Origin: a bacterium
GTDB lineage: Bacteria; Patescibacteriota; UBA1384; VFKW01
DNA length: 64,000 bases
Reading direction: 5' to 3'
Assembly (NCBI GenBank): GCA_030647355.1
Contig: JAUSIS010000013.1
Location: 177,165-241,164 of the forward strand
This document shows positions 1,798 to 64,000 of the stretch, in pieces. The notes beneath the pieces are model-generated. The model did no database searches, had not been told where the DNA came from, and worked only from the letters and a program-made list of their open reading frames with translations. The position numbers and the translations under genes are program-made. Each line of letters starts with the position of its first letter. Within the stretch, counting starts at the first letter, position 1.

Positions 1798-3171
1798 TTA
1801 CTCAGATGGCACAGGAATCGGATAGTCGCCATCGAAACACGCCATACAAAACTGATCCTTCGGACAGCGTGTCGCTTCTATCGTGCTCTCCTGGCTCAAG
1901 TAGTTAAGCTGATCGGCGCCGATATAGTCGCGTACTTCCTCAATCGTCTTATCAGCCGCGATCAGCTCGCCGCGCGTTGACATTGCAATCCCATAGAAGC
2001 AGGGATACTTAACCGGCGGCGCCACCACCTCAACCTCCACCCGCAACGCCCCTGCGTCCTTCAGCATGGCAACCGTACCGCCGGTTGTATTTGCTCGGAC
2101 AATGCTGTCTTCCACTTCGGCCAGTCGCTTGCCTGCCACCATTGGCTCTAGAGCCGCGTATTTGTGGCGTACCAAGTCATCCCACCCATCAGGTGCGATG
2201 AACGTTCGACCAAGGTACCGATTCTTGGCAAAACCGTAACCAAACGGTACTCCAGACGCCTCGGCAAAACCGACTGCCGCATGATTGCCCGACTCCGGTA
2301 CCGGTATTACTTTGTCCAGATTAACCGGCTTACATTGCCTCGCCAAGTTCTGGCCTAGCCGATGCCGCACTTCACACACCCACTGGCCCATCATCACACT
2401 ATCCGGCCGGGAAAAGTAGATGAACTCGAAAATGCACAATTTCCGTTTGGCCTCAACCGGCAATTGATAGTGGAACCGATTCCGCCCGTCAATCACCAGC
2501 ATCTCACCGGGAGCTATCTCTCGCGTCGTCTCTGCCCTAAGAAATCCGAAGGCACATGTCTCCGAGGTCAGCAAATAAAACTCCTCGCCCCGTTCGTTTC
2601 TCGATCGCCCCAGATAGAGCGGACGAATGCCAAATGGGTCACGCACCCCGATAAGCTTCCCTTCCGCCAATACCAGAAGCGCATACGAGCCTTCGATTGA
2701 CATACAGGTCTCTATCACTGCTTCCTCGATCGTAGGTGCCGTTGATCGGGAAATCATCGCCGCGATAATCTCCGTATCGCTCGTTGATTCAAACTCGACG
2801 CCCTCCGCCTCCAATTCCTTGCGCAACTCAGCGCTCTTGGGCAGATTGCCATTGTGCACAACCGCAACTTTCCGGCGATCAGTCCTGTAATGGGGATGTG
2901 CATTCAGCAATACTGATTCCCCAGTCGTACTGTAACGCACATGGCCGATCGCCACCGTACCCGGTAATGACTGGATTATATCCTTAGTCAACCCGGTAGT
3001 GACCAAACCGCATCGCTTTTCTGTTCGGATCGTTCCATTGTCCCACGCCGCCTCACCTGCCGCTTCCTGGCCCCGATGCTGGAGCATGTACAATCCCGTA
3101 TACGTATAAGCCGCCGGCAAAAATGGCGTATCGCACTTACTCACCGTCGCTACACCGAACACACCACACAT
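1798..3171 (-). CDS. purF: Amidophosphoribosyltransferase (glutamine PRPP amidotransferase)
   Basis: 457 aa. Begins MCGVFGV (Ntn-type catalytic Cys after Met), then a PRTase domain and a C-terminal Cys cluster (CPKDQFCMACFDGDYP) typical of Fe-S PurF. Confidence 0.92.
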   Translation of the reverse strand: MCGVFGVATVSKCDTPFLPAAYTYTGLYMLQHRGQEAAGEAAWDNGTIRTEKRCGLVTTGLTKDIIQSLPGTVAIGHVRYSTTGESVLLNAHPHYRTDRRKVAVVHNGNLPKSAELRKELEAEGVEFESTSDTEIIAAMISRSTAPTIEEAVIETCMSIEGSYALLVLAEGKLIGVRDPFGIRPLYLGRSRNERGEEFYLLTSETCAFGFLRAETTREIAPGEMLVIDGRNRFHYQLPVEAKRKLCIFEFIYFSRPDSVMMGQWVCEVRHRLGQNLARQCKPVNLDKVIPVPESGNHAAVGFAEASGVPFGYGFAKNRYLGRTFIAPDGWDDLVRHKYAALEPMVAGKRLAEVEDSIVRANTTGGTVAMLKDAGALRVEVEVVAPPVKYPCFYGIAMSTRGELIAADKTIEEVRDYIGADQLNYLSQESTIEATRCPKDQFCMACFDGDYPIPVPSE

Positions 3172-9996: not shown

Positions 9997-11724
9997 GTGA
10001 TTTACACCCTAACGAACAAGAATCCTGGTTTCCCCATCAGTGCCGCAATTATTGCTCAGATTGATGAGGAAAAAAGAGTCCGCCACACCCGCGAGATGAT
10101 TCTACTTTTCGGACTCGGCTCCCAGTTTGATCATCTTATCAAGCAGGAAATAGAAAAGCTGGGCGTCTTCTGTATGGTTGCCGACCCGGCCACTATCTCC
10201 TCTGATGATGTCAAGCAGGTAGCTCCCATCGGAATCATTTTGTCCGGCGGTCCCTCATCTGTTGTTGATGAACCGCCACCACTCGACAAGACCATTCTTG
10301 GACTGGGCATTCCTACCTTAGGCATCTGCCTGGGGCTGCAAGGAATTGCCCAGTATGTCGGCGCCGAAGTCACCTCCGCCTCGCAATCCCCCAGCGGTTA
10401 TCGCGAATTCGGCACCCACATCGCCACTATCACCGAAGACAGCTCATCGGTTAACGCCTTATTCCGTGGTTTGCCGCGGATGATGGATGTACTGGAGAGC
10501 CACGGCGACTGTGTTCAGCCGTCGCCTAAACTGACTATCTTGGCCACAACCGAGAATGCGCCGGTTGCCGCCGCTCGGGGCGCCGCTAAGGAGCATCAGC
10601 ACCTTTACGGTGTCCAGTTCCATCCCGAGGTGGAAGAGACCCAGTTCGGCAGCCGAATTCTGGCGAATTTCTGCTTTGGAGTTTGTGGCGCCAAGGAGAG
10701 TTTCCGGGCTCAGGATGAAGCGGAAATAAAAACCGAGTGGCTACGCCAAGAAATTGGCGATAAGCTTGTCGTTATTGGCCTGTCTGCCGGTTCTGATTCC
10801 TCAACCTGCGCCCATCTTGTCAAGAAAGCCTTGAATGACCAACCCGGACGCGTTCTCGGCGTCTACATTAAAGCTACCGATAGACCCGAAGATGAGGAAT
10901 TCGTCCGCCGGCACTTTGGCAATCAGGACTGGATTGAACTGAAGGTGGTGGATGCTACCTCTCAATTCCTGAAAGCTCTCCGTAACCAGCCGTGGTGGTG
11001 GCCATCTAAGTGGTGTCCGCTCCAGCGCCGCATTACCATGAAGCAGAAGCGCCGAGCGATGAAGCGCGTCTACCATCAAGTCCTTGAGGATGAGATCACT
11101 ATCTTCGCTGCCGCCAAGAACCGCCCACGTGACGAGGTTGTCATTATACAGGGAACCCTGTACACCGACCTTTGCGAAAGCGGCCATGGCTATAACACCG
11201 GTGCCCGTCGAGCCACCATCAAAGAGCACCACAATGTCGGCATTCCCTTCTCTGTTAAGGAGCTCTGTCCTCTGGATGACTGCGTCAAGGACAACGGCCG
11301 TAACATTGGTCGCGCCATCGGCGTGCCAGAGGAACTTTTAACGCGTCATCCCTTCCCCGGACCGGGATTAATAGTCCGGATTGAAGGCGAAGTGACCGCC
11401 GATAAGCTCCGTATTGCCCGCGCCGCCGATAAGATCTGGATAGACGAACTGCGCGATAAGGGCTTTTACCACAAGGTCTGGCAAGCCGGCGTCTTTGTAA
11501 CCCAGTCAGGTACAACCTGCACTAAGGGTGATGACGCCACTTCCGGTCTTGTTATTATCTTTTGGGCGGTGAATAGTACCAACGGCTTTACTGCCCGCGC
11601 TGCTGACCTTCCAATGTCTTTCCTTAGAAGGGTTAGTCAGCGCATGACTAACGAAATCCGTGAGGTGGGAGCGGCCGCATATCGAACTTCCGACAAACCG
11701 CCAACCACCATTGAATTCGGTTAA
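9997..11724 (+). CDS. guaA: GMP synthase (glutamine-hydrolysing), divergent
   Basis: 575 aa, GTG start with GGAGG SD. GATase-1 (GICLGLQ, FHPEV). PP-loop ATP pyrophosphatase with atypical LSAGSDSS. C-terminus DKPPTTIEFG matches the GuaA terminal KPPATIEWE motif. Higher GC than surroundings. Confidence 0.8.
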   Translation: MIYTLTNKNPGFPISAAIIAQIDEEKRVRHTREMILLFGLGSQFDHLIKQEIEKLGVFCMVADPATISSDDVKQVAPIGIILSGGPSSVVDEPPPLDKTILGLGIPTLGICLGLQGIAQYVGAEVTSASQSPSGYREFGTHIATITEDSSSVNALFRGLPRMMDVLESHGDCVQPSPKLTILATTENAPVAAARGAAKEHQHLYGVQFHPEVEETQFGSRILANFCFGVCGAKESFRAQDEAEIKTEWLRQEIGDKLVVIGLSAGSDSSTCAHLVKKALNDQPGRVLGVYIKATDRPEDEEFVRRHFGNQDWIELKVVDATSQFLKALRNQPWWWPSKWCPLQRRITMKQKRRAMKRVYHQVLEDEITIFAAAKNRPRDEVVIIQGTLYTDLCESGHGYNTGARRATIKEHHNVGIPFSVKELCPLDDCVKDNGRNIGRAIGVPEELLTRHPFPGPGLIVRIEGEVTADKLRIARAADKIWIDELRDKGFYHKVWQAGVFVTQSGTTCTKGDDATSGLVIIFWAVNSTNGFTARAADLPMSFLRRVSQRMTNEIREVGAAAYRTSDKPPTTIEFG

Positions 11725-18560: not shown

Positions 18561-18664
18561 ACCTCCGTTGTTTTTTAGTAAAATCGCTGCGACTTTACTG
18601 AGCGGTTGACTTTCTCAAGATCGTCAAGTAAAATCCAAATAGAACATAAAAAATAAAATATATG

Positions 18665-18800
18665 TCTTATCAAGAGTGACGCTAGGGAATTGGCCCAGTG
18701 ATCGTCCAGCAACCTTAAATCTAGTAGCTTATATGCTTACTGCTTACCAGCTTACTAACTTATTCGGTGCTAAATCCAAGCCCCAGAGGCAAGATAATAC
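18665..18800 (+). promoter_or_regulatory. SAM-I (S-box) riboswitch in the metK leader
   Basis: tcttatcaagag / gctagggaattggcccagtgatcgtccagcaacc / ggtgctaaatcc / gataa match the SAM-I consensus P1-P2-P3 and P1 closing. The P3 loop carries a copy of the cttactgcttaccagcttac dispersed repeat. Confidence 0.75.
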
Positions 18801-58277: not shown

Positions 58278-58832
58278 TTAAAATCTCAAAAAATGTCTAA
58301 CTTTATCTGTAACATGTTCACTCGCCGTTGGATGTTCGGGTAAATACCTTAGTAAAAAATGCCTGACTTCCTCGACCGGCTGATCCTCCAGCAAGAGTGA
58401 TAGGGGTAAGCCAACTTCCACTTTCTCAAAGTGTGCAACCGGACTTGGCTGCTCCGTTATCCAGAAAGATTTCAACTTATCATAGCTATAAACATATCCC
58501 ATGATAACCACGCCATTCTGCCCCAATTCAGCTTTGAATTTTCTCGGCTCGATATGTCCATATTGTGCGAACACAAAGATGAGCAAAATCATTACCAGAA
58601 TTAATGAGTAATCGGCTAAAGTCAACTGATACCCAAAATACTGCGCGGCCGCTACAAACAGGAAAGATAACCCTAGAATCAAAATAACTATTCCAAAGAT
58701 CCAGTACTGATTCTTTGAGTAGTAGTGAAATTCTGCCGCCTCCCAATTAATACTCTCTTTAGGCGCTAGACGTTCTATATGTTTATACTTTTTCTTAATG
58801 TTCTTCTTGGTAATATCCGTGCATTTTTTCAT
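58278..58832 (-). CDS. Hypothetical membrane protein
   Basis: 184 aa with two central TM helices. No recognisable family. Confidence 0.4.
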   Translation of the reverse strand: MKKCTDITKKNIKKKYKHIERLAPKESINWEAAEFHYYSKNQYWIFGIVILILGLSFLFVAAAQYFGYQLTLADYSLILVMILLIFVFAQYGHIEPRKFKAELGQNGVVIMGYVYSYDKLKSFWITEQPSPVAHFEKVEVGLPLSLLLEDQPVEEVRHFLLRYLPEHPTASEHVTDKVRHFLRF

Positions 58833-59023
58833 TTTCCCCTCCTATCTCGAGCAAGCCGAGATAATTACTCACCTGTAATATATCATTGATAGTAAGTGTT
58901 AGTCAATAAAGTTTTATTATCGATGGCAAAAGAAATAATTAAAAAATTACAGTAATCACGCCAGATAAACCACCAGCACACCTGAAATACCTCAAATATT
59001 TGAGATTTTACCATCAATCACAT

Positions 59024-59049
59024 GGCGGGACACCCGGGTCTAGAACCTT
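59024..59049. repeat. GGCGGGACACYCGGGYCTAGAACCTT motif, copy 1
   Basis: Identical-orientation copies at 59024, 60828 and 62059, each in a minus-strand intergenic region. Confidence 0.6.
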
Positions 59050-59082
59050 TATTTACTTCAATATCTCTTTCTTCCCCCTACT

Positions 59083-59649
59083 TTATTGTGCGGCTGGCAA
59101 TTCGGGTGGTAGGGATTGTTGATACAATGTTTGCAACCAGTACGTACCTAGTATTACTAAGCCGACTACTATGATAATAGATAGGATAAAAACAACAACA
59201 CCCCATTTCGTCCATGATTGCTGGACGGCCTTAAATTGTTCCACGTTTTCAAACTTACGGTTCTTCCATGCCCATTCATTACCTTTAATTCCCAGAATGA
59301 TAGCTACGACTAAGGTCATCGGACCAATTAGAGTTAAGAGTATGACACAGATTTGATAGGCAATTGACCAAGCTTGTACGCTACCGTTAATACCAATGAT
59401 ACCCAGGATAACGGTTATAGCTAAACTTAATGGCCCAATGAGAGCAAATAATCCAATCCAAACCCGATTGCCGATTGACCAAATCCATGTCAAGGAAAAA
59501 GCGCCCCAATTCCATCGATTTAACTCTGGAGGAAAAGGTCTATTAGAGCCACCGGCACTCGGAGTTGCATTAGCAGAGGGACCAGTCAGCCTAGACAAAG
59601 TATTGTCTGCAGACGAGGCAGGGGACGTCGAAGATATAGTTTCTTCCAT
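59083..59649 (-). CDS. Hypothetical membrane protein with Pro/Ala/Ser-rich N-terminus
   Basis: 188 aa. Low-complexity N-terminus then about 4 TM helices. Confidence 0.4.
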   Translation of the reverse strand: MEETISSTSPASSADNTLSRLTGPSANATPSAGGSNRPFPPELNRWNWGAFSLTWIWSIGNRVWIGLFALIGPLSLAITVILGIIGINGSVQAWSIAYQICVILLTLIGPMTLVVAIILGIKGNEWAWKNRKFENVEQFKAVQQSWTKWGVVVFILSIIIVVGLVILGTYWLQTLYQQSLPPELPAAQ

Positions 59650-59689
59650 GTTTCCTCCTTATCTATTATACCTGCCAAGTAAGTGATCC

Positions 59690-59860
59690 TTGGCGGAAGG
59701 GGTGGGATTCCTCCTCCCCCGTCGTTTCACTGTGCTGCCGCACCCTGGGCGCTCACATCTCGCTCCCGCCGCATTTGTGCTCGTTATTCCTCGCACGCGG
59801 CCCTCCGGGGCCTGGGAGTCTCGCTGACGGCTCACAAGAAATATTCGCCTTTCCTCCACC
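59690..59860. ncRNA. GC-rich (about 65%) island, candidate structured RNA of unknown class
   Basis: A 170-bp segment with GC content far above flanking DNA, in the gap between two minus-strand CDSs, rich in complementary G/C runs (ggaggaggaatcccacccc, ccccggagggccgcg). No confident match to RNase P, tmRNA or SRP consensus. Confidence 0.3.
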
Positions 59861-59862
59861 TT

Positions 59863-60807
59863 TTACTGCTCATTTTTAAAAAAAGACTCAGCCTGTTTAA
59901 ATGATTTTTCTAGAATATCCAATTGTTCATTTAATCCGTAAAGTGGCGATGTAAGAGATCGCAATCTGAGAACCAATGTATTGGTATCTTCTGAATTTAC
60001 AACTTCATCGGGTCTAAACTCAGGATGTTCAGGATATTGATGCACATGAGCCATAAATGAATCAATATCTTCTTTCACATTTTTTATCGTAATCAAAAAT
60101 AAAGTCCTACTATGGTCAAACCCTTGTCTCTGTTGGCTAATTATTTTTGGATCAACCTTATCAAAATTATCCAGTTGTTTAATTGATGTATCGTGGAGCG
60201 TATTAATCCGTAGCTCAGTCCTCTTAACTTCATCTAGTACTTCAGATTGCACTTTCTCTAATCGTGCAATAACCTCTTCAAATGTGTACCCCTTTTCGGT
60301 AGTAGCTGAGTTTTGGGCAAGCTGTTCGCCTATTTCATGATTTAACTGTATTTTTTCCTTTCCTGTTTGTGCAGCCTTACTGGCCCACTCTTGAGTATCG
60401 GTCGAGATCGGCTCACCGGCAGCTTGTAATATTTTTTCAGCTAACTCGTCCTGCAATATCATTACTTCTCGCTCCAAGTCCTCGCATTCCCTATGCTCCT
60501 TAGGCTCTTGATTATCATCCATAAATCTGTTATTTACCGATATCATAGATCGTAAAAAACTTGCTTCCGATTTACTTGCTCTTAGTTCCGGGACTTTCTC
60601 GGCAAACCCACAGGCAAAAAGCAAACTTTCGGTGTCTTTAATAGTATCACCTGTCAATTCAATTTTAGACAATTCTCTCTTCTGGAGTTCCAGTTTCTCT
60701 CTCGTCGACAAAGTGGGTAATTTACCTTCCTTCTCCCAATCAAACCCGTTGACACCCGGTTCATGTTCCACGATAACCTCCTCATATTTTATTTCTAAAT
60801 CAAGCAA
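59863..60807 (-). CDS. Hypothetical coiled-coil protein
   Basis: 314 aa, highly charged with heptad-like segments. No recognisable motif. Confidence 0.4.
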   Translation of the reverse strand: MLDLEIKYEEVIVEHEPGVNGFDWEKEGKLPTLSTREKLELQKRELSKIELTGDTIKDTESLLFACGFAEKVPELRASKSEASFLRSMISVNNRFMDDNQEPKEHRECEDLEREVMILQDELAEKILQAAGEPISTDTQEWASKAAQTGKEKIQLNHEIGEQLAQNSATTEKGYTFEEVIARLEKVQSEVLDEVKRTELRINTLHDTSIKQLDNFDKVDPKIISQQRQGFDHSRTLFLITIKNVKEDIDSFMAHVHQYPEHPEFRPDEVVNSEDTNTLVLRLRSLTSPLYGLNEQLDILEKSFKQAESFFKNEQ

Positions 60808-60827
60808 TAACCAGGGAAATATTCTAA

Positions 60828-60852
60828 GCGGGACACTCGGGTCTAAAACCTT
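60828..60852. repeat. GGCGGGACACYCGGG motif, copy 2
   Basis: agcgggacactcgggtctaaaacctt, 20 nt upstream of the 59863..60807 start and downstream of tRNA-Ser. Confidence 0.55.
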
Positions 60853-60888
60853 CTGACCCTGTCCTCTGCCACCTGTCTTCTGGATTTG

Positions 60889-60975
60889 CGGTGAGGGTGG
60901 GATTCGAACCCACGGAGCCCTTACGAGCTCAACATCTTAGCAGGATGCTGCCTTCAACCTCTCGGCCACCTCACC
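60889..60975 (-). tRNA. tRNA-Ser (anticodon GCU), class II with long variable arm
   Basis: Reverse complement GGTGAGGTGGCCGAGAGGTTGAAGGCAGCATCCTGCTAAGATGTTGAGCTCGTAAGGGCTCCGTGGGTTCGAATCCCACCCTCACCG. Anticodon loop CT-GCT-AA, GTTCGAATC T-loop. No encoded CCA. Confidence 0.85.
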
Positions 60976-61980
60976 ATATGAATCCAAATACTTCTTAATA
61001 TGTTTAGGATTGTGACTTCCTATTTCTTGAAAATATTTTCTAACATCCTTGGTATCATACAATCTTAAATCTCCACGACAATCTACCTTAGGATGAATAC
61101 CAATCTGCTCTAAAATTATCTTGACCGATTCTATCAAATTCACTGACCGTGAGCTAAATCCTATTTTATAATAAATGTATTGCTTACCTCTCACGGAATA
61201 TCTATGCTTGTACACACATCCATCTGTATCAACCAACCCCCTAACACAAGCTAACGAATATTTCATATCCTTCTTGATCCATTCCGGAATATCAATTTGA
61301 TGTTTAACCTTATTACCCTTAACCAATCCATTCTTTAATAAATACGCTACTAAATTTTTTCTAGAAACCTGAATATTTACTACGGAATTTCGAATTATTT
61401 CGCTGGGCTGAATTCTAAAAAGTTTTATCATCAATTGACAAACATATTTTGCATATTCCCGATCGTCAACCCGATTTAAAGTGATTGTAACCTGATAATC
61501 TGTAATTCCACCATCACCAATCAGTATCCCAAACATTTCTGCTAAATTCACACTTTTTTTGGGGAACAAGACTATTTTTGGACAGCTTATGCTATTTGTC
61601 GAAAAACGCCCTTTGGTTAGCCACCATTCCTCCCACCCTTTTCTCCTTTTCTCCGGATCAGTACAAATTGTTCCATATTTTCTGATTGTTGTCTCTGCAC
61701 CTAATCGGGCAGCTTTTTTTGTTGACCAAAAAGCCGGACGAATTTCAACATCATCTGGTATTTTTATTCCCATATGGCTAACCAACTTATCAACCGCCTT
61801 CTCCGTCATCGAAAAACGCTCCCTCTTCCAATCTGTCAAAGTCCGAACTCCAACTTCGCAGAATACAGACAATTCTAAATTTGACCCAAACACACCCATT
61901 GCTCTGTTTAAAAACTCTGCCTGCTTCCCCTTTAGGAATAACACGCGATTAGAATAATCTTTTTTAATCAATTCCGCCAT
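60937..61980 (-). CDS. LAGLIDADG-family homing endonuclease (double-motif)
   Basis: 347 aa. Two LAGLIDADG motifs (FGILIGDGG and VRGLVDTDGCV). The 3' end overlaps the 5' half of tRNA-Ser(GCU) by 39 nt. Confidence 0.8.
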   Translation of the reverse strand: MAELIKKDYSNRVLFLKGKQAEFLNRAMGVFGSNLELSVFCEVGVRTLTDWKRERFSMTEKAVDKLVSHMGIKIPDDVEIRPAFWSTKKAARLGAETTIRKYGTICTDPEKRRKGWEEWWLTKGRFSTNSISCPKIVLFPKKSVNLAEMFGILIGDGGITDYQVTITLNRVDDREYAKYVCQLMIKLFRIQPSEIIRNSVVNIQVSRKNLVAYLLKNGLVKGNKVKHQIDIPEWIKKDMKYSLACVRGLVDTDGCVYKHRYSVRGKQYIYYKIGFSSRSVNLIESVKIILEQIGIHPKVDCRGDLRLYDTKDVRKYFQEIGSHNPKHIKKYLDSYGEVAERLKAASC

Positions 61981-62058
61981 ATTTCCATTATACTATGTTT
62001 TAAATGTACAATACAGCATCCCGGCCAAGCGGTGGGGGTGAGATTCGTCCAGCTCTTT

Positions 62059-62084
62059 GGCGGGACACTCGGGCCTAGAACCTT
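62059..62084. repeat. GGCGGGACACYCGGG motif, copy 3
   Basis: ggcgggacactcgggcctagaacctt. Preceded at 62030-62053 by gcggtgggggtgagattcgtcc, a degenerate copy of the tRNA-Ser(GCU) 3' end (gcggtgagggtgggattcgaacc). Confidence 0.55.
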
Positions 62085-62171
62085 GTAAGTCCTTCGACTC
62101 GATTCCTCGCTCAGGACATTCGTCTCGTTTGCTCCCTGGTCGAAGACCATGAGCGAGCAAAGCGAGTCGAA

Positions 62172-62261
62172 TGGCGGAGAGTGCAGGATTCGAACCTGCG
62201 AGAGTCTCTCGACCCTTCTGGTTTTCAAGACCAGCGCCATCAACCACTCGGCCAACTCTCC
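62172..62261 (-). tRNA. tRNA-Ser (anticodon UGA), class II, CCA encoded
   Basis: Reverse complement GGAGAGTTGGCCGAGTGGTTGATGGCGCTGGTCTTGAAAACCAGAAGGGTCGAGAGACTCTCGCAGGTTCGAATCCTGCACTCTCCGCCA. Anticodon loop CT-TGA-AA. Confidence 0.85.
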
Positions 62262-62584
62262 ACAAAGGGCTGGATTCAAGACTGTCCCGACCAAACCCCT
62301 GTCCCACTTGAGAGCAATCTATTTGGCAAAGAGAAATAATCATCTATTTTGCCGAGAGATTGAAATCGAGTGGGAGCTCCGGCACCCCACCATTTTATCT
62401 TAATTTACGCTATTAAGCCATTAGATTATATCAGAAAAAGCCCGAAAATCAAGTTATTACGCCTGTACATGCGAAAACCGCATCTCAACAATTGCTGCGA
62501 AAAATCTGTATTTTTGAAATTTGAAATTTGGATTTTGAAATTTACCTGTGTTATATTGTTCCTGTAGAGAAAAAAGGAGAAACT

Positions 62585-64000
62585 ATGGATGATCTCTCAT
62601 CATTCAATCAAACTATGCGTCGCCAAGACGAAGAAACAAACGCTCAAATGCTTGCAGCACAATACAGCGTCCCCTATATAAATCTTATCGGTTATCCAAT
62701 CGCTCCGGACATTCTATCAATAATTCCCCAAGAGCTAGCAGTTAAATATAACTCCATTGCTTTCATGCGAGCCCAAAACAAAGTCCATGTTGCCATACTG
62801 ACCCCGGAAAATCCCGAAATGATCAAATTCCTCCAAGAATTAGCCGTCAAGACAAAATACGAATTCGCCTTTGTTCTCTGTTCTCCCGCCAGCATCAATC
62901 ACGCCCTAGAATTATACAAAACCCTAAAACCCGACCAATCCTCCCATTCGTCCGACCAAATAGACACTTCCCAAACCTCTGCCGATGACATCCTTAAGGA
63001 TGTAAAAAATCTAACCGACCTAAAAGATAAAATCAAAACCATCTCCACCACGCAGCTTCTGGATGTCATTTTCGGTGGAGCAGTAAAAATTGATGCTGCC
63101 GACATCCATCTCGAGCCAGCGGAAAATGGAGTTAGAATTCGCTATCGAATTGATGGAGTCTTGCAGGAAGTCGCCATCCTGCCGCTCGATGTCTATAAGT
63201 CACTCAATTCCCGCATTAAATTTCTCTCCAATCTAAAACTGGACGTGAAAACCACCCCCCAAGATGGTCGCTTCAGCATAAAGACCGGCCCCACCGACAC
63301 CATAGATATTCGTATCTCCACCATGCCTGCCGCCTATGGCGAAATCATTGATATGCGCTTGCTCAACAGTAAAGATGAAATCGTTGACCTTGCCAATCTA
63401 GGAATCCGCCCTGATGCCCTAGCTCTCATCGAAGAAGCCGTCGCCAAACCAAACGGGCTGGTACTAAACACCGGTCCTACCGGTTCCGGTAAAACAACCA
63501 CCTTGTATGCAATACTAAATAAGCTCAACAAACCCGGAATAAAAATAATCACCCTGGAAGACCCAATCGAGTATAAAATACCTAATATCGATCAGGTTCA
63601 AATAAACGCCGAAAAAGGATACACTTTTGCCGCCGCTCTTCGCGCCTCCTTAAGGCAAGACCCGAACATTATTATGGTTGGGGAGATGCGTGACAAGGAG
63701 ACAGCCGAGATCGGTCTGCAAGCCGCTATGACTGGACATTTGGTATTATCAACCCTACACACCAACAATGCACCCGCCTCACTCGGTCGCCTCATGGATA
63801 TGGGTATTGAGCCCTATCTTCTAGCCGGCTCCATCAACCTGATTATCGCCCAAAGGTTAGTACGAAAAGTCTGCGTAAGCTGTAAAGGCAAAGGCTGCTC
63901 TATCTGCAATCATACCGGTTTCAAAGGCCGTATTGCGATCATTGAATGCCTGAAACCTAATGATGTTATAAACAATCTAATTATCCGAAAAGCCCCTCTC
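62585..64000 (+). CDS. Type IV pilus / type II secretion assembly ATPase (PilB/GspE family), 3'-partial
   Basis: RBS aaaggag. N-terminal GSPII-like domain. Walker A GPTGSGKTT, Asp box, Walker B MVGEMRD, His box, and a CxxC...CxxC tetracysteine motif. Runs off the window end. Confidence 0.9.
   Translation, partial: MDDLSSFNQTMRRQDEETNAQMLAAQYSVPYINLIGYPIAPDILSIIPQELAVKYNSIAFMRAQNKVHVAILTPENPEMIKFLQELAVKTKYEFAFVLCSPASINHALELYKTLKPDQSSHSSDQIDTSQTSADDILKDVKNLTDLKDKIKTISTTQLLDVIFGGAVKIDAADIHLEPAENGVRIRYRIDGVLQEVAILPLDVYKSLNSRIKFLSNLKLDVKTTPQDGRFSIKTGPTDTIDIRISTMPAAYGEIIDMRLLNSKDEIVDLANLGIRPDALALIEEAVAKPNGLVLNTGPTGSGKTTTLYAILNKLNKPGIKIITLEDPIEYKIPNIDQVQINAEKGYTFAAALRASLRQDPNIIMVGEMRDKETAEIGLQAAMTGHLVLSTLHTNNAPASLGRLMDMGIEPYLLAGSINLIIAQRLVRKVCVSCKGKGCSICNHTGFKGRIAIIECLKPNDVINNLIIRKAPL

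What the first reader, a model, noticed from the sequence alone, without database searches (positions are those of the whole stretch)
60820..62270. A free-standing LAGLIDADG homing endonuclease lies between two tRNA-Ser genes and overlaps one of them, with a tRNA 3'-end pseudo-fragment and a thrice-repeated 26-nt motif
The double-motif LAGLIDADG ORF (60937..61980) ends 39 nt inside tRNA-Ser(GCU). Upstream of it, at 62030-62053, is a degenerate copy of that tRNA's 3' end (18 of 22 nt), and beyond that is tRNA-Ser(UGA), which is followed by a long imperfect hairpin (62096-62170). The motif GGCGGGACACYCGGGYCTAGAACCTT occurs at 59024, 60828 and 62059 in the same orientation. Homing endonucleases usually reside in introns or inteins. 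A tRNA-flanked free-standing copy with a duplicated tRNA end suggests a past intron or mobile-element event at a tRNA-Ser locus.
Basis: partly seen in the sequence, partly recalled or inferred. Interest (0 to 1): 0.55.

Follow-up and report, generated by a model that had tools for sequence, protein, structure and literature searches.

The report
Homing endonuclease gene fixed beside tRNA-Ser
The endonuclease gene between the two tRNA-Ser genes belongs to a large family in ultra-small (Patescibacteria/CPR) bacteria that always sits immediately in front of a tRNA-Ser gene, a strictly site-specific selfish-gene arrangement that I could not find described in the literature.

Summary
On the minus strand lie tRNA-Ser(UGA), a strong 80-nt hairpin, a 26-nt motif, a significant copy of a tRNA-Ser 3' end, a 347-aa HTH + double-LAGLIDADG ORF that runs 39 nt into tRNA-Ser(GCU), and two more motif copies.

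Comparison with other genomes changes the picture. The protein belongs to a large Patescibacteria family (at least 553 species genomes; 338 clusters at E<=1e-30). In all 76 loci that include the flank, the gene ends between 54 nt inside and 35 nt before a tRNA-Ser gene on the same strand: GCU in 70 loci, UGA in a separate sub-lineage of 6. Syntenic relatives lack the gene.

In most members the last codons (K-H-L, with Leu = TTG in 51/63) double as the -35 box of the tRNA promoter. A -10 box ends 6 nt before the ATG. Both catalytic Asp residues are invariant, and the fold is I-Tsp061I/I-DmoI-like.

Best reading: a free-standing homing endonuclease gene with a fixed site at the 5' flank of tRNA-Ser, mostly inherited vertically. 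There is no sign of an intron.

The pseudo 3' end, the hairpin and the clustering of three motif copies are specific to this genome and only partly explained.

The parts
62172..62261 (-). tRNA-Ser(UGA), complete, CCA encoded
   Evidence: ARAGORN; Rfam tRNA 62.9 bits, model positions 1-71
62092..62171 (-). Long imperfect hairpin that abuts the 3' end of tRNA-Ser(UGA); unique in the window; function unknown
   Evidence: dG -36.7 kcal/mol, z -4.27, 0 of 200 shuffles fold as well; no other copy in the window
62059..62084 (.). 26-nt motif, copy M3 (GGCGGGACACTCGGGCCTAGAACCTT as written on the + strand)
   Evidence: 0 mismatches; 0.00 expected by chance
62029..62053 (-). Pseudo-fragment of a tRNA-Ser(GCU)-type 3' end (T-loop plus the 3' strand of the acceptor stem)
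   Evidence: 17 of 19 nt identical to 60888-60906, 0.01 expected by chance; member of the 28-mer repeat family D1
61987..61992 (-). TATAAT -10-like box that ends 6 nt before the ATG; this position is conserved across the family and is consistent with a leaderless transcript (inference)
   Evidence: sequence; a -10-like box ends exactly 6 nt before the ATG in 32 of 43 scorable relatives, consensus TGnTAnAAT-GGAGaT-ATG
60937..61980 (-). HTH + double-LAGLIDADG endonuclease ORF, 347 aa; the last 13 codons lie inside tRNA-Ser(GCU)
61771..61926 (-). N-terminal helix-turn-helix region (residues ~19-70)
   Evidence: helices at residues 19-31, 34-41, 45-52 and 60-70 in the AF2 model; homologues carry precomputed HTH Pfam hits PF01381, PF12728 and PF13384; weak profile matches to HigA2 and CylR2
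61504..61545 (-). LAGLIDADG motif 1 (LAEMFGILIGDGGI; catalytic D156)
   Evidence: G155, D156 and G157 are invariant in 28 relatives
61216..61254 (-). LAGLIDADG motif 2 (LACVRGLVDTDGC; catalytic D253)
   Evidence: D251, T252, D253 and G254 are invariant
60988..61011 (-). NPKHIKKY, the conserved C-terminal end of the family. Most relatives have K-H-L with Leu = TTG, which forms the -35 box of the tRNA promoter. Here the codon is ATT (Ile), the usual stop is missing and the ORF reads on into the tRNA
60888..60975 (-). tRNA-Ser(GCU), complete; its first 39 nt are also the last codons of the ORF
60827..60852 (.). 26-nt motif, copy M2 (2 mismatches), 35 nt 3' of tRNA-Ser(GCU)
59024..59049 (.). 26-nt motif, copy M1, 33 nt 3' of the 188-aa ORF
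59690..59860 (-). Neighbouring G+C-rich (up to 68%) structured RNA-like element. Its 3' end (GAATCCCACCCCTTCCGCCA) resembles a tRNA-Ser 3' end. Whether it belongs to the system is uncertain
   Evidence: fold dG -71.9 kcal/mol, z -2.86; no Rfam hit; repeat family D1; the G+C maximum of the window

Best explanation
The ORF is a member of a large Patescibacteria family of free-standing homing endonuclease genes. The protein has an N-terminal HTH DNA-binding domain and a compact monomeric two-domain LAGLIDADG nuclease of the I-Tsp061I/I-DmoI type. The family's fixed genomic address is the 5' flank of a tRNA-Ser gene: GCU for most members, UGA for one sub-lineage.

Shown:
- The position is invariant.
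- The catalytic residues are intact.
- The gene is present or absent at the same syntenic site in related genomes.
- The unit is wired into tRNA expression. A -10 box lies 6 nt before the ATG. In most members the last codons carry the -35 box (TTG Leu codon) of a promoter whose -10 box lies 8-15 nt before tRNA +1, the same geometry as in genomes without the gene.

Inferred:
- The enzyme cuts alleles that lack the gene, in or next to the promoter-proximal or 5' part of tRNA-Ser.
- The gene is then copied in by break repair (intronless homing, as for phage T4 SegB in its tRNA cluster).
- Once resident it is inherited mostly vertically.
- It is hard to delete cleanly, because its 3' end holds the promoter of an essential tRNA.

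In this window's sub-lineage the -35 Leu codon and the usual stop codon are lost, so the ORF reads 39 nt into the tRNA. The pseudo 3' end upstream is best read as the relic of a second tRNA-Ser(GCU) copy left by a local recombination event.
For: - Family and place: 532+ homologues, at least 553 species genomes, 338 clusters at 50% identity with E<=1e-30.
- Position: 76 of 76 loci with flanks have a tRNA-Ser on the same strand, with the stop codon -54 to +35 nt from tRNA +1.
- Target specificity: the UGA-linked genes are each other's nearest relatives, as expected after a switch of target.
- Nuclease: both motif Asp residues are invariant. GDGx is present in 75 of 76 and DxDG in 76 of 76.
- Fold: AF2 model pLDDT 86.6. 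The best Foldseek hit is I-Tsp061I (E 1.5e-11, TM 0.74); I-DmoI scores TM 0.62-0.70. The PDB sequence profile also hits 2DCH (E 1.5e-6).
- Empty sites: of 93 tRNA-Ser(GCU) loci from metagenomes with at least 400 nt upstream, none has the gene next to tRNA-Ser(GCU); one (L172) has a distant relative next to tRNA-Ser(UGA). L163 is syntenic with the gene-bearing L054: flanks 82-85% identical, tRNA 96.7%, 85 nt against 1.47 kb between tRNA-Arg and tRNA-Ser. L189 is syntenic with L003, L004, L005 and L008 but lacks the gene.
- Promoter wiring: 47% of loci have a 9/12 or better sigma-70 match, against 6.6% in shuffles. Gene-less loci show the same geometry. TTG is used for the K-H-L leucine in 51 of 63 loci, against 18% of other Leu codons in the same ORFs (p 6e-27). 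The -10 box ends 6 nt before the ATG in 32 of 43 scorable loci.
- Other nuclease genes occupy the same spacer in other genomes: a GIY-YIG gene in L188 (Pfam 9e-15).
- Precedent: T4 SegB is a free-standing endonuclease in a tRNA cluster and recognises the T-loop motif (PMC2330249). Intronless homing is reviewed in PMC3984707.
Against: - No cleavage site or activity is known.
- There is no sign of recent transfer. Species representatives share at most ~79% protein identity (one pair at 98%). In the L003/4/5/8 clade the protein (67-71% aa identity) has diverged about as much as the neighbouring comFC gene (69-75% nt identity).
- Identical proteins sit in the same upstream context in 22 and 16 contigs.
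- Such long vertical residence with an intact ORF is also what a domesticated gene would show.
- The tRNA 5' sequences next to the gene vary a good deal, so a conserved 20-bp target is not obvious.
- The intact tRNA behind the gene would still carry any target that lies wholly inside the tRNA.
- No close relatives were found in viral contigs, so the route of transfer is unknown.
Confidence: 0.6

Rival explanations
1. A domesticated LAGLIDADG protein. Under this reading the HTH-LAGLIDADG protein is a host factor, inherited vertically and kept by selection on the cell. It could be a DNA-binding regulator of the tRNA-Ser promoter that overlaps its own 3' end, or a nuclease used for another cellular purpose. 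Its absence in some genomes would then be secondary loss.
For: - All 76 examined genes are intact, with conserved regulatory architecture at both ends.
- The protein has diverged about as much as neighbouring genes.
- Identical proteins always sit in the same upstream context.
- comFC-gene-tRNA-Ser synteny recurs in several lineages.
- L189 lacks the gene through a deletion that also truncated comFC.
- Nearest-neighbour relations agree in part with the lineage names in the record titles.
- Precedent: WhiA is a domesticated LAGLIDADG + HTH protein, and it appears among the fold matches.
Against: - Both catalytic Asp residues are invariant, whereas WhiA has lost them (my own knowledge of the WhiA structure paper).
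- WhiA-type structures match worse (TM 0.43-0.49) than true endonucleases (0.62-0.74).
- The domain order is reversed relative to WhiA.
- The gene is absent from most sampled tRNA-Ser(GCU) loci, including close syntenic relatives that keep an 81-154 nt spacer with a normal promoter.
- Identity of the protein tracks identity of the adjacent tRNA only weakly (rho 0.11).
- A sub-lineage has moved to tRNA-Ser(UGA).
Confidence: 0.22
2. A relic of an intron or intein event: the endonuclease once lay in a group I intron (or an intein) in a tRNA-Ser gene, and what is seen now is the debris.
For: - Many LAGLIDADG genes of CPR bacteria lie in rRNA insertions or group I introns (PMC11270868).
- There is a tRNA 3'-end fragment upstream of the ORF.
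- The first 24 nt of the transcription unit resemble tRNA-Ser nt 1-24 (12.5 of 24 on average, against ~6 at other offsets).
Against: - No intron family matches at E<=5 in 58800-62700.
- Both tRNAs match the full tRNA model.
- All 76 relatives are free-standing, each with its own promoter-like box and ATG.
- No extein-like flanks are present.
- The closest solved relatives include intron and intein enzymes, but that reflects fold only.
Confidence: 0.04
3. The repeats, rather than the endonuclease, reflect integrase-type or recombinational insertions at tRNA-Ser genes. Under this reading the 26-nt motif copies and the tRNA 3'-end-like sequences are junction (att-like) repeats. They would be left by the insertion of small modules: [endonuclease + tRNA] and [314-aa ORF + G+C-rich element + 188-aa ORF].
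For: - The three motif copies are direct repeats that bracket exactly these two modules.
- Four tRNA 3'-end-like 28-mers lie in the same orientation.
- The region 3' of tRNA-Ser(GCU) varies between strains that carry the identical endonuclease.
- About 25 of the 80 contigs end within ~250-350 nt after the tRNA (my count from the locus lengths and tRNA positions).
- L042 has a similar pseudo 3' end.
Against: - No Pfam integrase or recombinase hit in the four ORFs scanned (58278-61980). The rest of the window was not scanned.
- The pseudo 3' end lies upstream, not downstream, of the intact tRNA-Ser(GCU).
- The motif core also follows tRNA-Ser genes in genomes without any insertion (L163, L118). 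It therefore looks like a normal element of the tRNA-Ser 3' flank.
- The motif has no common RNA fold (z about 0).
Confidence: 0.1

Closest known systems
Monomeric two-domain LAGLIDADG homing endonucleases of archaeal rRNA introns (I-Tsp061I, PDB 2DCH; I-DmoI)
   Same: - Compact ~190-aa double alpha-beta-beta-alpha-beta-beta-alpha core.
- Both LAGLIDADG helices keep their catalytic Asp.
- These are the best sequence-profile and fold matches.
   Different: - Those enzymes are encoded inside introns; this one is free-standing.
- It carries an extra ~135-aa N-terminal HTH domain.
- It is bacterial (Patescibacteria).
- It sits at a tRNA flank, not in rRNA.
Phage T4 SegB (free-standing homing endonuclease in the tRNA gene cluster; PMC2330249)
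   Same: - Free-standing endonuclease gene embedded among tRNA genes.
- Related genomes have the homologous tRNA region without the gene.
- SegB recognises a conserved tRNA motif and drives co-inheritance of neighbouring tRNA genes. That is the mechanism proposed here.
   Different: - SegB is a GIY-YIG enzyme of a phage.
- The family here is LAGLIDADG, chromosomal, found in hundreds of species, and always directly 5' of one tRNA identity (Ser).
- Its ORF end overlaps the tRNA promoter or the tRNA itself.
WhiA / DUF199 (domesticated LAGLIDADG + HTH transcription factor of Gram-positive bacteria)
   Same: Combination of LAGLIDADG domains with an HTH domain in a chromosomal bacterial gene; a detectable fold match.
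   Different: - WhiA has a C-terminal HTH and lacks the catalytic acidic residues (my knowledge of the published structure).
- Here the HTH is N-terminal and both Asp residues are invariant.
- The fold match is weaker (TM 0.43-0.49).
- The distribution is patchy.
LAGLIDADG genes in rRNA insertion sequences of CPR bacteria (PMC11270868)
   Same: Same phylum, same nuclease superfamily, site-specific occupancy of conserved RNA genes.
   Different: Those lie inside 16S/23S rRNA genes, often in group I introns. That paper does not mention tRNA (0 occurrences of the word). This family is outside any gene, at a tRNA-Ser promoter.

Membership tests
LAGLIDADG homing endonuclease (monomeric, two-domain) | Two LAGLIDADG motifs, each with the conserved acidic residue | tested here: met
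   GDGG (D156) and DTDG (D253) are invariant in 28 relatives and present in 75 of 76 and 76 of 76 loci
LAGLIDADG homing endonuclease (monomeric, two-domain) | Family profile match above the curated threshold | tested here: met
   Pfam LAGLIDADG_3, 33 bits against a cut-off of 22.5; the profile covers the second domain only
LAGLIDADG homing endonuclease (monomeric, two-domain) | Double alpha-beta-beta-alpha-beta-beta-alpha fold | tested here: met
   AF2 pLDDT 86.6; Foldseek hits I-Tsp061I (E 1.5e-11, TM 0.74) and I-DmoI (TM 0.62-0.70)
LAGLIDADG homing endonuclease (monomeric, two-domain) | Site-specific double-strand cleavage of a long target | not testable with these tools
   Needs protein and substrate DNA
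Free-standing homing endonuclease gene (intronless homing) | Not inside an intron or intein; has its own expression signals | tested here: met
   No intron family hit; uninterrupted tRNAs; conserved -10 box 6 nt before the ATG
Free-standing homing endonuclease gene (intronless homing) | Same insertion site in different genomes, with related genomes lacking the gene at that site | tested here: met
   76 of 76 loci at the tRNA-Ser 5' flank; empty syntenic sites L163 and L185 and the deletion allele L189
Free-standing homing endonuclease gene (intronless homing) | Enzyme cleaves the gene-less allele and is copied in with flanking markers | not testable with these tools
   No experiment possible. 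No recent transfer events were seen
WhiA-type domesticated LAGLIDADG regulator | Loss of catalytic acidic residues; C-terminal HTH | tested here: not met
   Catalytic Asp residues are invariant; the HTH is N-terminal; weaker fold match, TM 0.43-0.49
Group I intron-encoded endonuclease in a tRNA gene | Ribozyme core flanking the ORF and an interrupted host gene | tested here: not met
   No Intron_gpI or other intron match at E<=5; both tRNAs align to model positions 1-71 without an insertion apart from the normal long variable arm
tRNA-targeting integrative element | Integrase gene plus a direct repeat of the tRNA 3' end downstream of the intact tRNA | tested here: inconclusive
   No Pfam integrase hit in the four ORFs scanned. 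A significant 3'-end copy exists but lies upstream of tRNA-Ser(GCU). A weaker 3'-end-like sequence lies 1.2 kb downstream

The most novel reading that the evidence does not exclude
The family is more than a passenger. By placing the -35 box of the promoter of tRNA-Ser(GCU) (presumed essential and single-copy) inside its own last codons, and in this window the tRNA's first 39 nt inside its ORF, the endonuclease gene has made itself part of the tRNA's expression unit. Either this acts as an anti-deletion 'addiction' device of a selfish gene, or the HTH-LAGLIDADG protein has been recruited to control or protect the tRNA-Ser locus. A further possibility is that the start of the gene (GGAGAT-ATG-GCT-GAA...) is an ancient copy of tRNA-Ser nt 1-24. 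That would mean the element first inserted into the tRNA gene and carried a replacement 5' part plus promoter. This would mirror, at the 5' end and with a homing endonuclease, the way integrative elements restore tRNA 3' ends.
Probability: 0.25. Interest if true: 0.8.

Novelty: new variant of a known kind. Interest (0 to 1): 0.6.

Why it matters
Homing endonuclease genes are normally studied in introns, inteins and phages. This is a chromosomal, free-standing LAGLIDADG family with hundreds of members, all at one address next to one tRNA identity. It would provide:

- a natural series of related meganucleases, with an extra HTH module, whose targets can be guessed from the empty sites;
- a test case for how selfish nuclease genes persist for long periods in tiny genomes;
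- an example of protein-coding sequence that doubles as a tRNA promoter.

It also has practical consequences. It explains a recurrent annotation oddity in CPR genomes (an ORF running into a tRNA). It also flags the tRNA-Arg/tRNA-Ser spacer and the tRNA-Ser 3' flank as variable spots where assemblies tend to break.

Tried and rejected
- Group I intron or other RNA family around the ORF: Rfam at gathering threshold and at E<=5 gave only the two tRNAs plus chance hits.
- Exact 26-nt motif in 80 homologous loci: absent, apart from the same-genome contig L001. Only a 10-nt core recurs 3' of some tRNA-Ser genes.
- A shared RNA fold for the motif: none, z about 0.
- Pseudo tRNA 3' ends upstream of the gene as a family feature: not found. 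The top hits were real upstream tRNAs. Orphan T-loop-like fragments are equally frequent in loci with and without the gene (2.6 against 2.3 per 100 kb).
- Phage carriage: only 23-29% identical, unrelated LAGLIDADG genes in viral contigs.
- Other copies of the hairpin or of the G+C-rich element in the window: none.
- Paralogues of the endonuclease in the window: none.
- Homology between the window's 314-aa ORF and the 320-aa ORF in the same spacer of L102/L167: none (E 0.48).
- Pfam and NCBIfam on the 314-aa and 188-aa neighbours: nothing above threshold.
- Recent horizontal jumps, tested by looking up identical proteins in many contigs: the upstream context is always the same.
- Co-divergence with the adjacent tRNA: only a weak correlation, and tRNAs are too short to be a good host marker.
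- Literature: four full-text searches found no description of a tRNA-Ser-linked LAGLIDADG family in CPR.
Full report
**1. What is in the window**

Read on the minus strand, which is the direction of all these genes, the region holds the following, in order.

- tRNA-Ser(UGA), 62261-62172.
- An 80-nt imperfect hairpin directly after its CCA end, 62171-62092. It has dG -36.7 kcal/mol and z -4.27.
- Copy M3 of a 26-nt motif, 62084-62059.
- A 19-25-nt fragment at 62053-62029 that matches 17 of 19 nt of the 3' end of tRNA-Ser(GCU); 0.01 such matches are expected by chance.
- A TATAAT box that ends 6 nt before an ATG.
- A 347-aa ORF, 61980-60937.
- tRNA-Ser(GCU), 60975-60888. Its first 39 nt are the last 13 codons of the ORF.
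- Motif copy M2, 35 nt further on.
- A 314-aa ORF, a 170-nt G+C-rich element, a 188-aa ORF, and motif copy M1.

The tRNAs are complete by ARAGORN and by the Rfam model. The motif occurs three times and nowhere else in 64 kb. One small correction applies: the middle copy starts at 60827 and has two mismatches to the stated consensus.

**2. The protein**

- Pfam places the C-terminal half in LAGLIDADG_3.
- An alignment of 28 relatives shows both LAGLIDADG motifs with invariant acidic residues, GDGG (D156) and DTDG (D253).
- The AlphaFold model is confident (pLDDT 86.6).
- Its residues ~140-335 match the archaeal intron enzyme I-Tsp061I best (Foldseek E 1.5e-11, TM 0.74). Intein endonuclease domains, I-AniI and I-DmoI (TM 0.62-0.70) follow. 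WhiA comes lower, at TM 0.43-0.49.
- A sequence profile also finds I-Tsp061I first.
- The first ~135 residues are helical, with an HTH. Many homologues carry precomputed HTH_3, HTH_17 or HTH_23 hits.

So this is a compact monomeric LAGLIDADG nuclease with an extra N-terminal DNA-binding module and an apparently intact active site.

**3. The decisive observation comes from relatives**

- The family is large: 532+ proteins in the 90%-clustered collection, at least 553 species-level genomes, and 2078 clusters at 50% identity with E<=1e-3, of which 338 have E<=1e-30.
- The lineage names in the record titles are almost all Patescibacteria/CPR (Paceibacteria, Yanofsky-, Nealson-, Moran-, Kaiser-, Sung-, Uhr-, Harrison-, Yonath- and Staskawiczbacteria). 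Some automated 'TPA_asm' titles carry other names, which I did not verify.
- In all 76 of the 80 fetched loci that extend past the gene (plus the window itself), a tRNA-Ser gene follows on the same strand. The stop codon lies between 54 nt inside and 35 nt before tRNA +1, typically 7-25 nt before it.
- Seventy of these are tRNA-Ser(GCU).
- Six are tRNA-Ser(UGA). The five whose nearest relatives I examined are each other's closest relatives.
- The four loci without a tRNA simply end at the contig edge.
- What lies upstream varies: tRNA-Arg(GCG) on the other strand, comFC, tRNA-Ser(UGA), or a tRNA-Ser with anticodon ACU.

**4. The gene is not universal**

I scanned metagenome contigs for a tRNA-Ser(GCU) sequence type shared by 12 gene-bearing loci. 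The scan returned 120 loci.

- Of the 93 loci with at least 400 nt upstream, none has the gene next to tRNA-Ser(GCU). One (L172) has a distant relative next to tRNA-Ser(UGA).
- Several are clear empty-site counterparts. L163 shares 82-85% identical flanks, the tRNA-Arg, a 96.7% identical tRNA-Ser(GCU) and the tRNA-Ser(UGA) with the gene-bearing L054. It has 85 nt between tRNA-Arg and tRNA-Ser, where L054 has 1.47 kb.
- Nine loci have this short 81-154-nt spacer, with the layout ...TTCAA-TTGACx-17 nt-TAnAAT-~10 nt-tRNA.
- L189 is syntenic with L003, L004, L005 and L008 (comFC 69-75% identical). It lacks the gene together with the 3' part of comFC, so it is a deletion allele.
- In other genomes the same spacer holds other nuclease-type genes: a GIY-YIG gene in L188, and in L158 an HTH protein with a LAGLIDADG-like LLAMLYWAEGS stretch that Pfam did not confirm.

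**5. How the gene is wired to the tRNA**

The 3' end:
- In the 45 nt before the tRNA, 47% of gene-bearing loci have a sigma-70-type match of 9/12 or better, against 6.6% of shuffles.
- The -35 box is TTGA(A/G)A and falls on the conserved C-terminal codons K-H-L-K/R. The -10 box ends 8-15 nt before tRNA +1.
- Gene-less loci have the same geometry, with the -10 box ending 9-14 nt before tRNA +1.
- The leucine after K-H uses TTG in 51 of 63 loci. Only 18% of the other leucine codons in the same ORFs are TTG (binomial p 6e-27). This points to a constraint at the DNA level.
- The end of the ORF therefore appears to double as the tRNA promoter. This rests on consensus matches and codon statistics, not on transcript data.

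The 5' end:
- The consensus is TGnTAnAAT-GGAGaT-ATG-GCt-GAa.
- A -10-like box ends exactly 6 nt before the ATG in 32 of 43 scorable loci, including the window. That is the arrangement of a leaderless message (inference).

Possible tRNA relic at the start of the gene:
- The 24 nt from -6 to +18 of the gene match nt 1-24 of tRNA-Ser at 12.5 of 24 on average, against about 6 at 22 other offsets.
- This may be an old relic of a tRNA 5' end. It may also be coincidence built from a GGAG, an ATG and common second and third codons. I treat it as a lead only.

**6. This window's sub-lineage**

- The window, its nearest relative L002 (57-58% identity) and proteins P0002-P0005 have K-H-I instead of K-H-L.
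- They lack the usual stop and read on into the tRNA. Their C-terminal tails (GEVAERLKAASC, GELPERLK..., GEGARRPR...) are translated tRNA sequence.
- In all, the stop lies inside the tRNA in 8 of the 76 loci plus the window.
- The tail is not conserved and is modelled with low confidence.
- If the tRNA is cut out of a common transcript, the message would lose its stop codon (inference).
- Where the tRNA's own promoter lies in this window is unclear. A 9/12 match lies 79 nt upstream, inside the ORF.

**7. Mode of inheritance**

- I found no recent transfers. Species representatives share at most ~79% identity, apart from one pair at 98% with identical tRNAs.
- In the L003/4/5/8 clade the protein (67-71% aa) has diverged about as much as the neighbouring comFC gene (69-75% nt).
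- Identical proteins seen on 22 and 16 contigs always have the same upstream genes.
- Nearest-neighbour relations agree only in part with the lineage names.
- Identity of the protein correlates weakly with identity of the adjacent tRNA (rho 0.11).
- No close relative is on viral contigs.

The family thus looks like an old, mostly vertically inherited resident that is gained or lost now and then and once switched to a paralogous tRNA.

**8. Interpretation**

The following together fit a free-standing homing endonuclease gene that spreads by intronless homing (reviewed in PMC3984707):
- one exact genomic address across hundreds of species;
- an intact nuclease;
- empty syntenic sites;
- a target switch that follows the protein lineage;
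- other nuclease genes in the same spacer.

Phage T4 SegB is the closest functional precedent. It is a free-standing endonuclease inside a tRNA cluster, recognises the T-loop motif and drags neighbouring tRNA genes along (PMC2330249).

The main rival is domestication. Long vertical residence, strict conservation of both regulatory ends and the WhiA precedent speak for it. Patchy occupancy and retained catalytic residues speak against it. I give homing 0.6 and domestication about 0.2.

An intron origin has essentially no support.

**9. The window-specific extras**

Pseudo 3' end:
- It is statistically real but not a family feature.
- Its acceptor-strand sequence differs from the live tRNA at positions that would pair with a slightly different 5' strand.
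- I read it as the remnant of a second tRNA-Ser(GCU)-type copy left by local recombination (inference).

26-nt motif:
- It has no shared fold.
- Its core, GACCCGRGTG, also lies 22-49 nt 3' of tRNA-Ser genes in L037, L069, L118 and L163, often as a small TCGG-loop-CCGA hairpin. These genomes include ones with and without the endonuclease.
- It is therefore probably a normal 3'-flank element of tRNA-Ser genes. M3 and M2 would belong to the two tRNAs.
- M1 may mark a former third unit. Upstream of it lies the G+C-rich element, whose 3' end resembles a tRNA-Ser 3' end.
- The alternative, that the direct repeats are junctions of inserted modules, cannot be excluded (rival 3).

The function of the hairpin after tRNA-Ser(UGA) is unknown.

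**10. Novelty**

NCBI already labels the protein 'LAGLIDADG family homing endonuclease', so the protein class is known. I found no description of a tRNA-Ser-linked family, of its fixed position, or of the promoter overlap. The work on LAGLIDADG genes in CPR concerns rRNA insertions and does not mention tRNA. I rate it a new variant of a known kind.

Noticed in passing
window 59690-59860 (-): A 170-nt island with the highest G+C content in the window (up to 68%, against 40.6% overall). It folds into a closed multi-branch structure (dG -71.9 kcal/mol, z -2.86). An 8-bp terminal helix and a 3' end, GAATCCCACCCCTTCCGCCA, resemble a tRNA-Ser acceptor/T-arm end. No Rfam family matches it and ARAGORN does not call it. 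It is a possible unknown structured RNA or a decayed tRNA-Ser-derived element.
   Followed up: partly
L015:3844-3933, L025:891-977, L053:3834-3921, L057:3813-3903 (all minus strand): Well-formed class II tRNA-Ser genes with anticodon ACU (loop YTACTAA) lie divergently 60-110 nt upstream of the endonuclease gene. They are only 64-73% identical to the tRNA-Ser(GCU) of the same locus. An A34 serine tRNA is unusual in bacteria.
   Followed up: partly
L188 and L158 (spacer between tRNA-Arg(GCG) and tRNA-Ser(GCU)): In genomes without the LAGLIDADG gene the same spacer can hold other nuclease-type genes. L188 has a GIY-YIG domain protein (Pfam 9e-15). L158 has a 231-aa HTH_38 protein with a LAGLIDADG-like LLAMLYWAEGS stretch, not confirmed by Pfam, that ends at tRNA-Arg.
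   Followed up: partly
L037:~3040-3090, L069, L118:~10135-10175, L163:~695-730 and ~895-930, L054 after tRNA-Ser(UGA): A short conserved element, TTATCGG-N(1-6)-GACCCGA(G/A)TGCC, follows tRNA-Ser genes of several Patescibacteria and forms a TCGG/CCGA mini-hairpin. It shares its core with the window's 26-nt motif. In L037 it overlaps a terminator-like hairpin with a T run.
   Followed up: partly
L042:6020-6048: Another orphan tRNA-Ser 3'-end-like fragment (TTCGAATCCCACCCTCTCCGC) lies 8 nt upstream of tRNA-Ser(UGA), about 900 nt after tRNA-Ser(GCU).
   Followed up: no
loci L002-L081 and L228-L235: About 25 of the 80 genome contigs end within ~250-350 nt after the tRNA-Ser (my count). Many metagenome contigs that carry the gene are only 1.1-1.3 kb long, i.e. 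the gene alone. Strains with the identical endonuclease differ in the genes 3' of the tRNA. The tRNA-Ser 3' flank seems to be a strain-variable spot where assemblies break.
   Followed up: partly
L189:2323-2710: The comFC gene that precedes the endonuclease in relatives (L004, L005, L220) is truncated and interrupted by a stop here, and the endonuclease is missing. This looks like a deletion allele rather than a pristine empty site.
   Followed up: partly
window 58278-58832 (-): The 184-aa membrane protein (motif YSYDKLKSFWI) has look-alikes, judged by eye from translated ORFs, between tRNA-Arg(GCG) and tRNA-Ser(GCU) in L154, L092, L117 and L125. It is apparently a conserved neighbour of this tRNA cluster in Patescibacteria.
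   Followed up: no
window 18664-18800 (+): A SAM riboswitch (S-box) match above the Rfam gathering score: 50.4 bits against 44.4.
   Followed up: no
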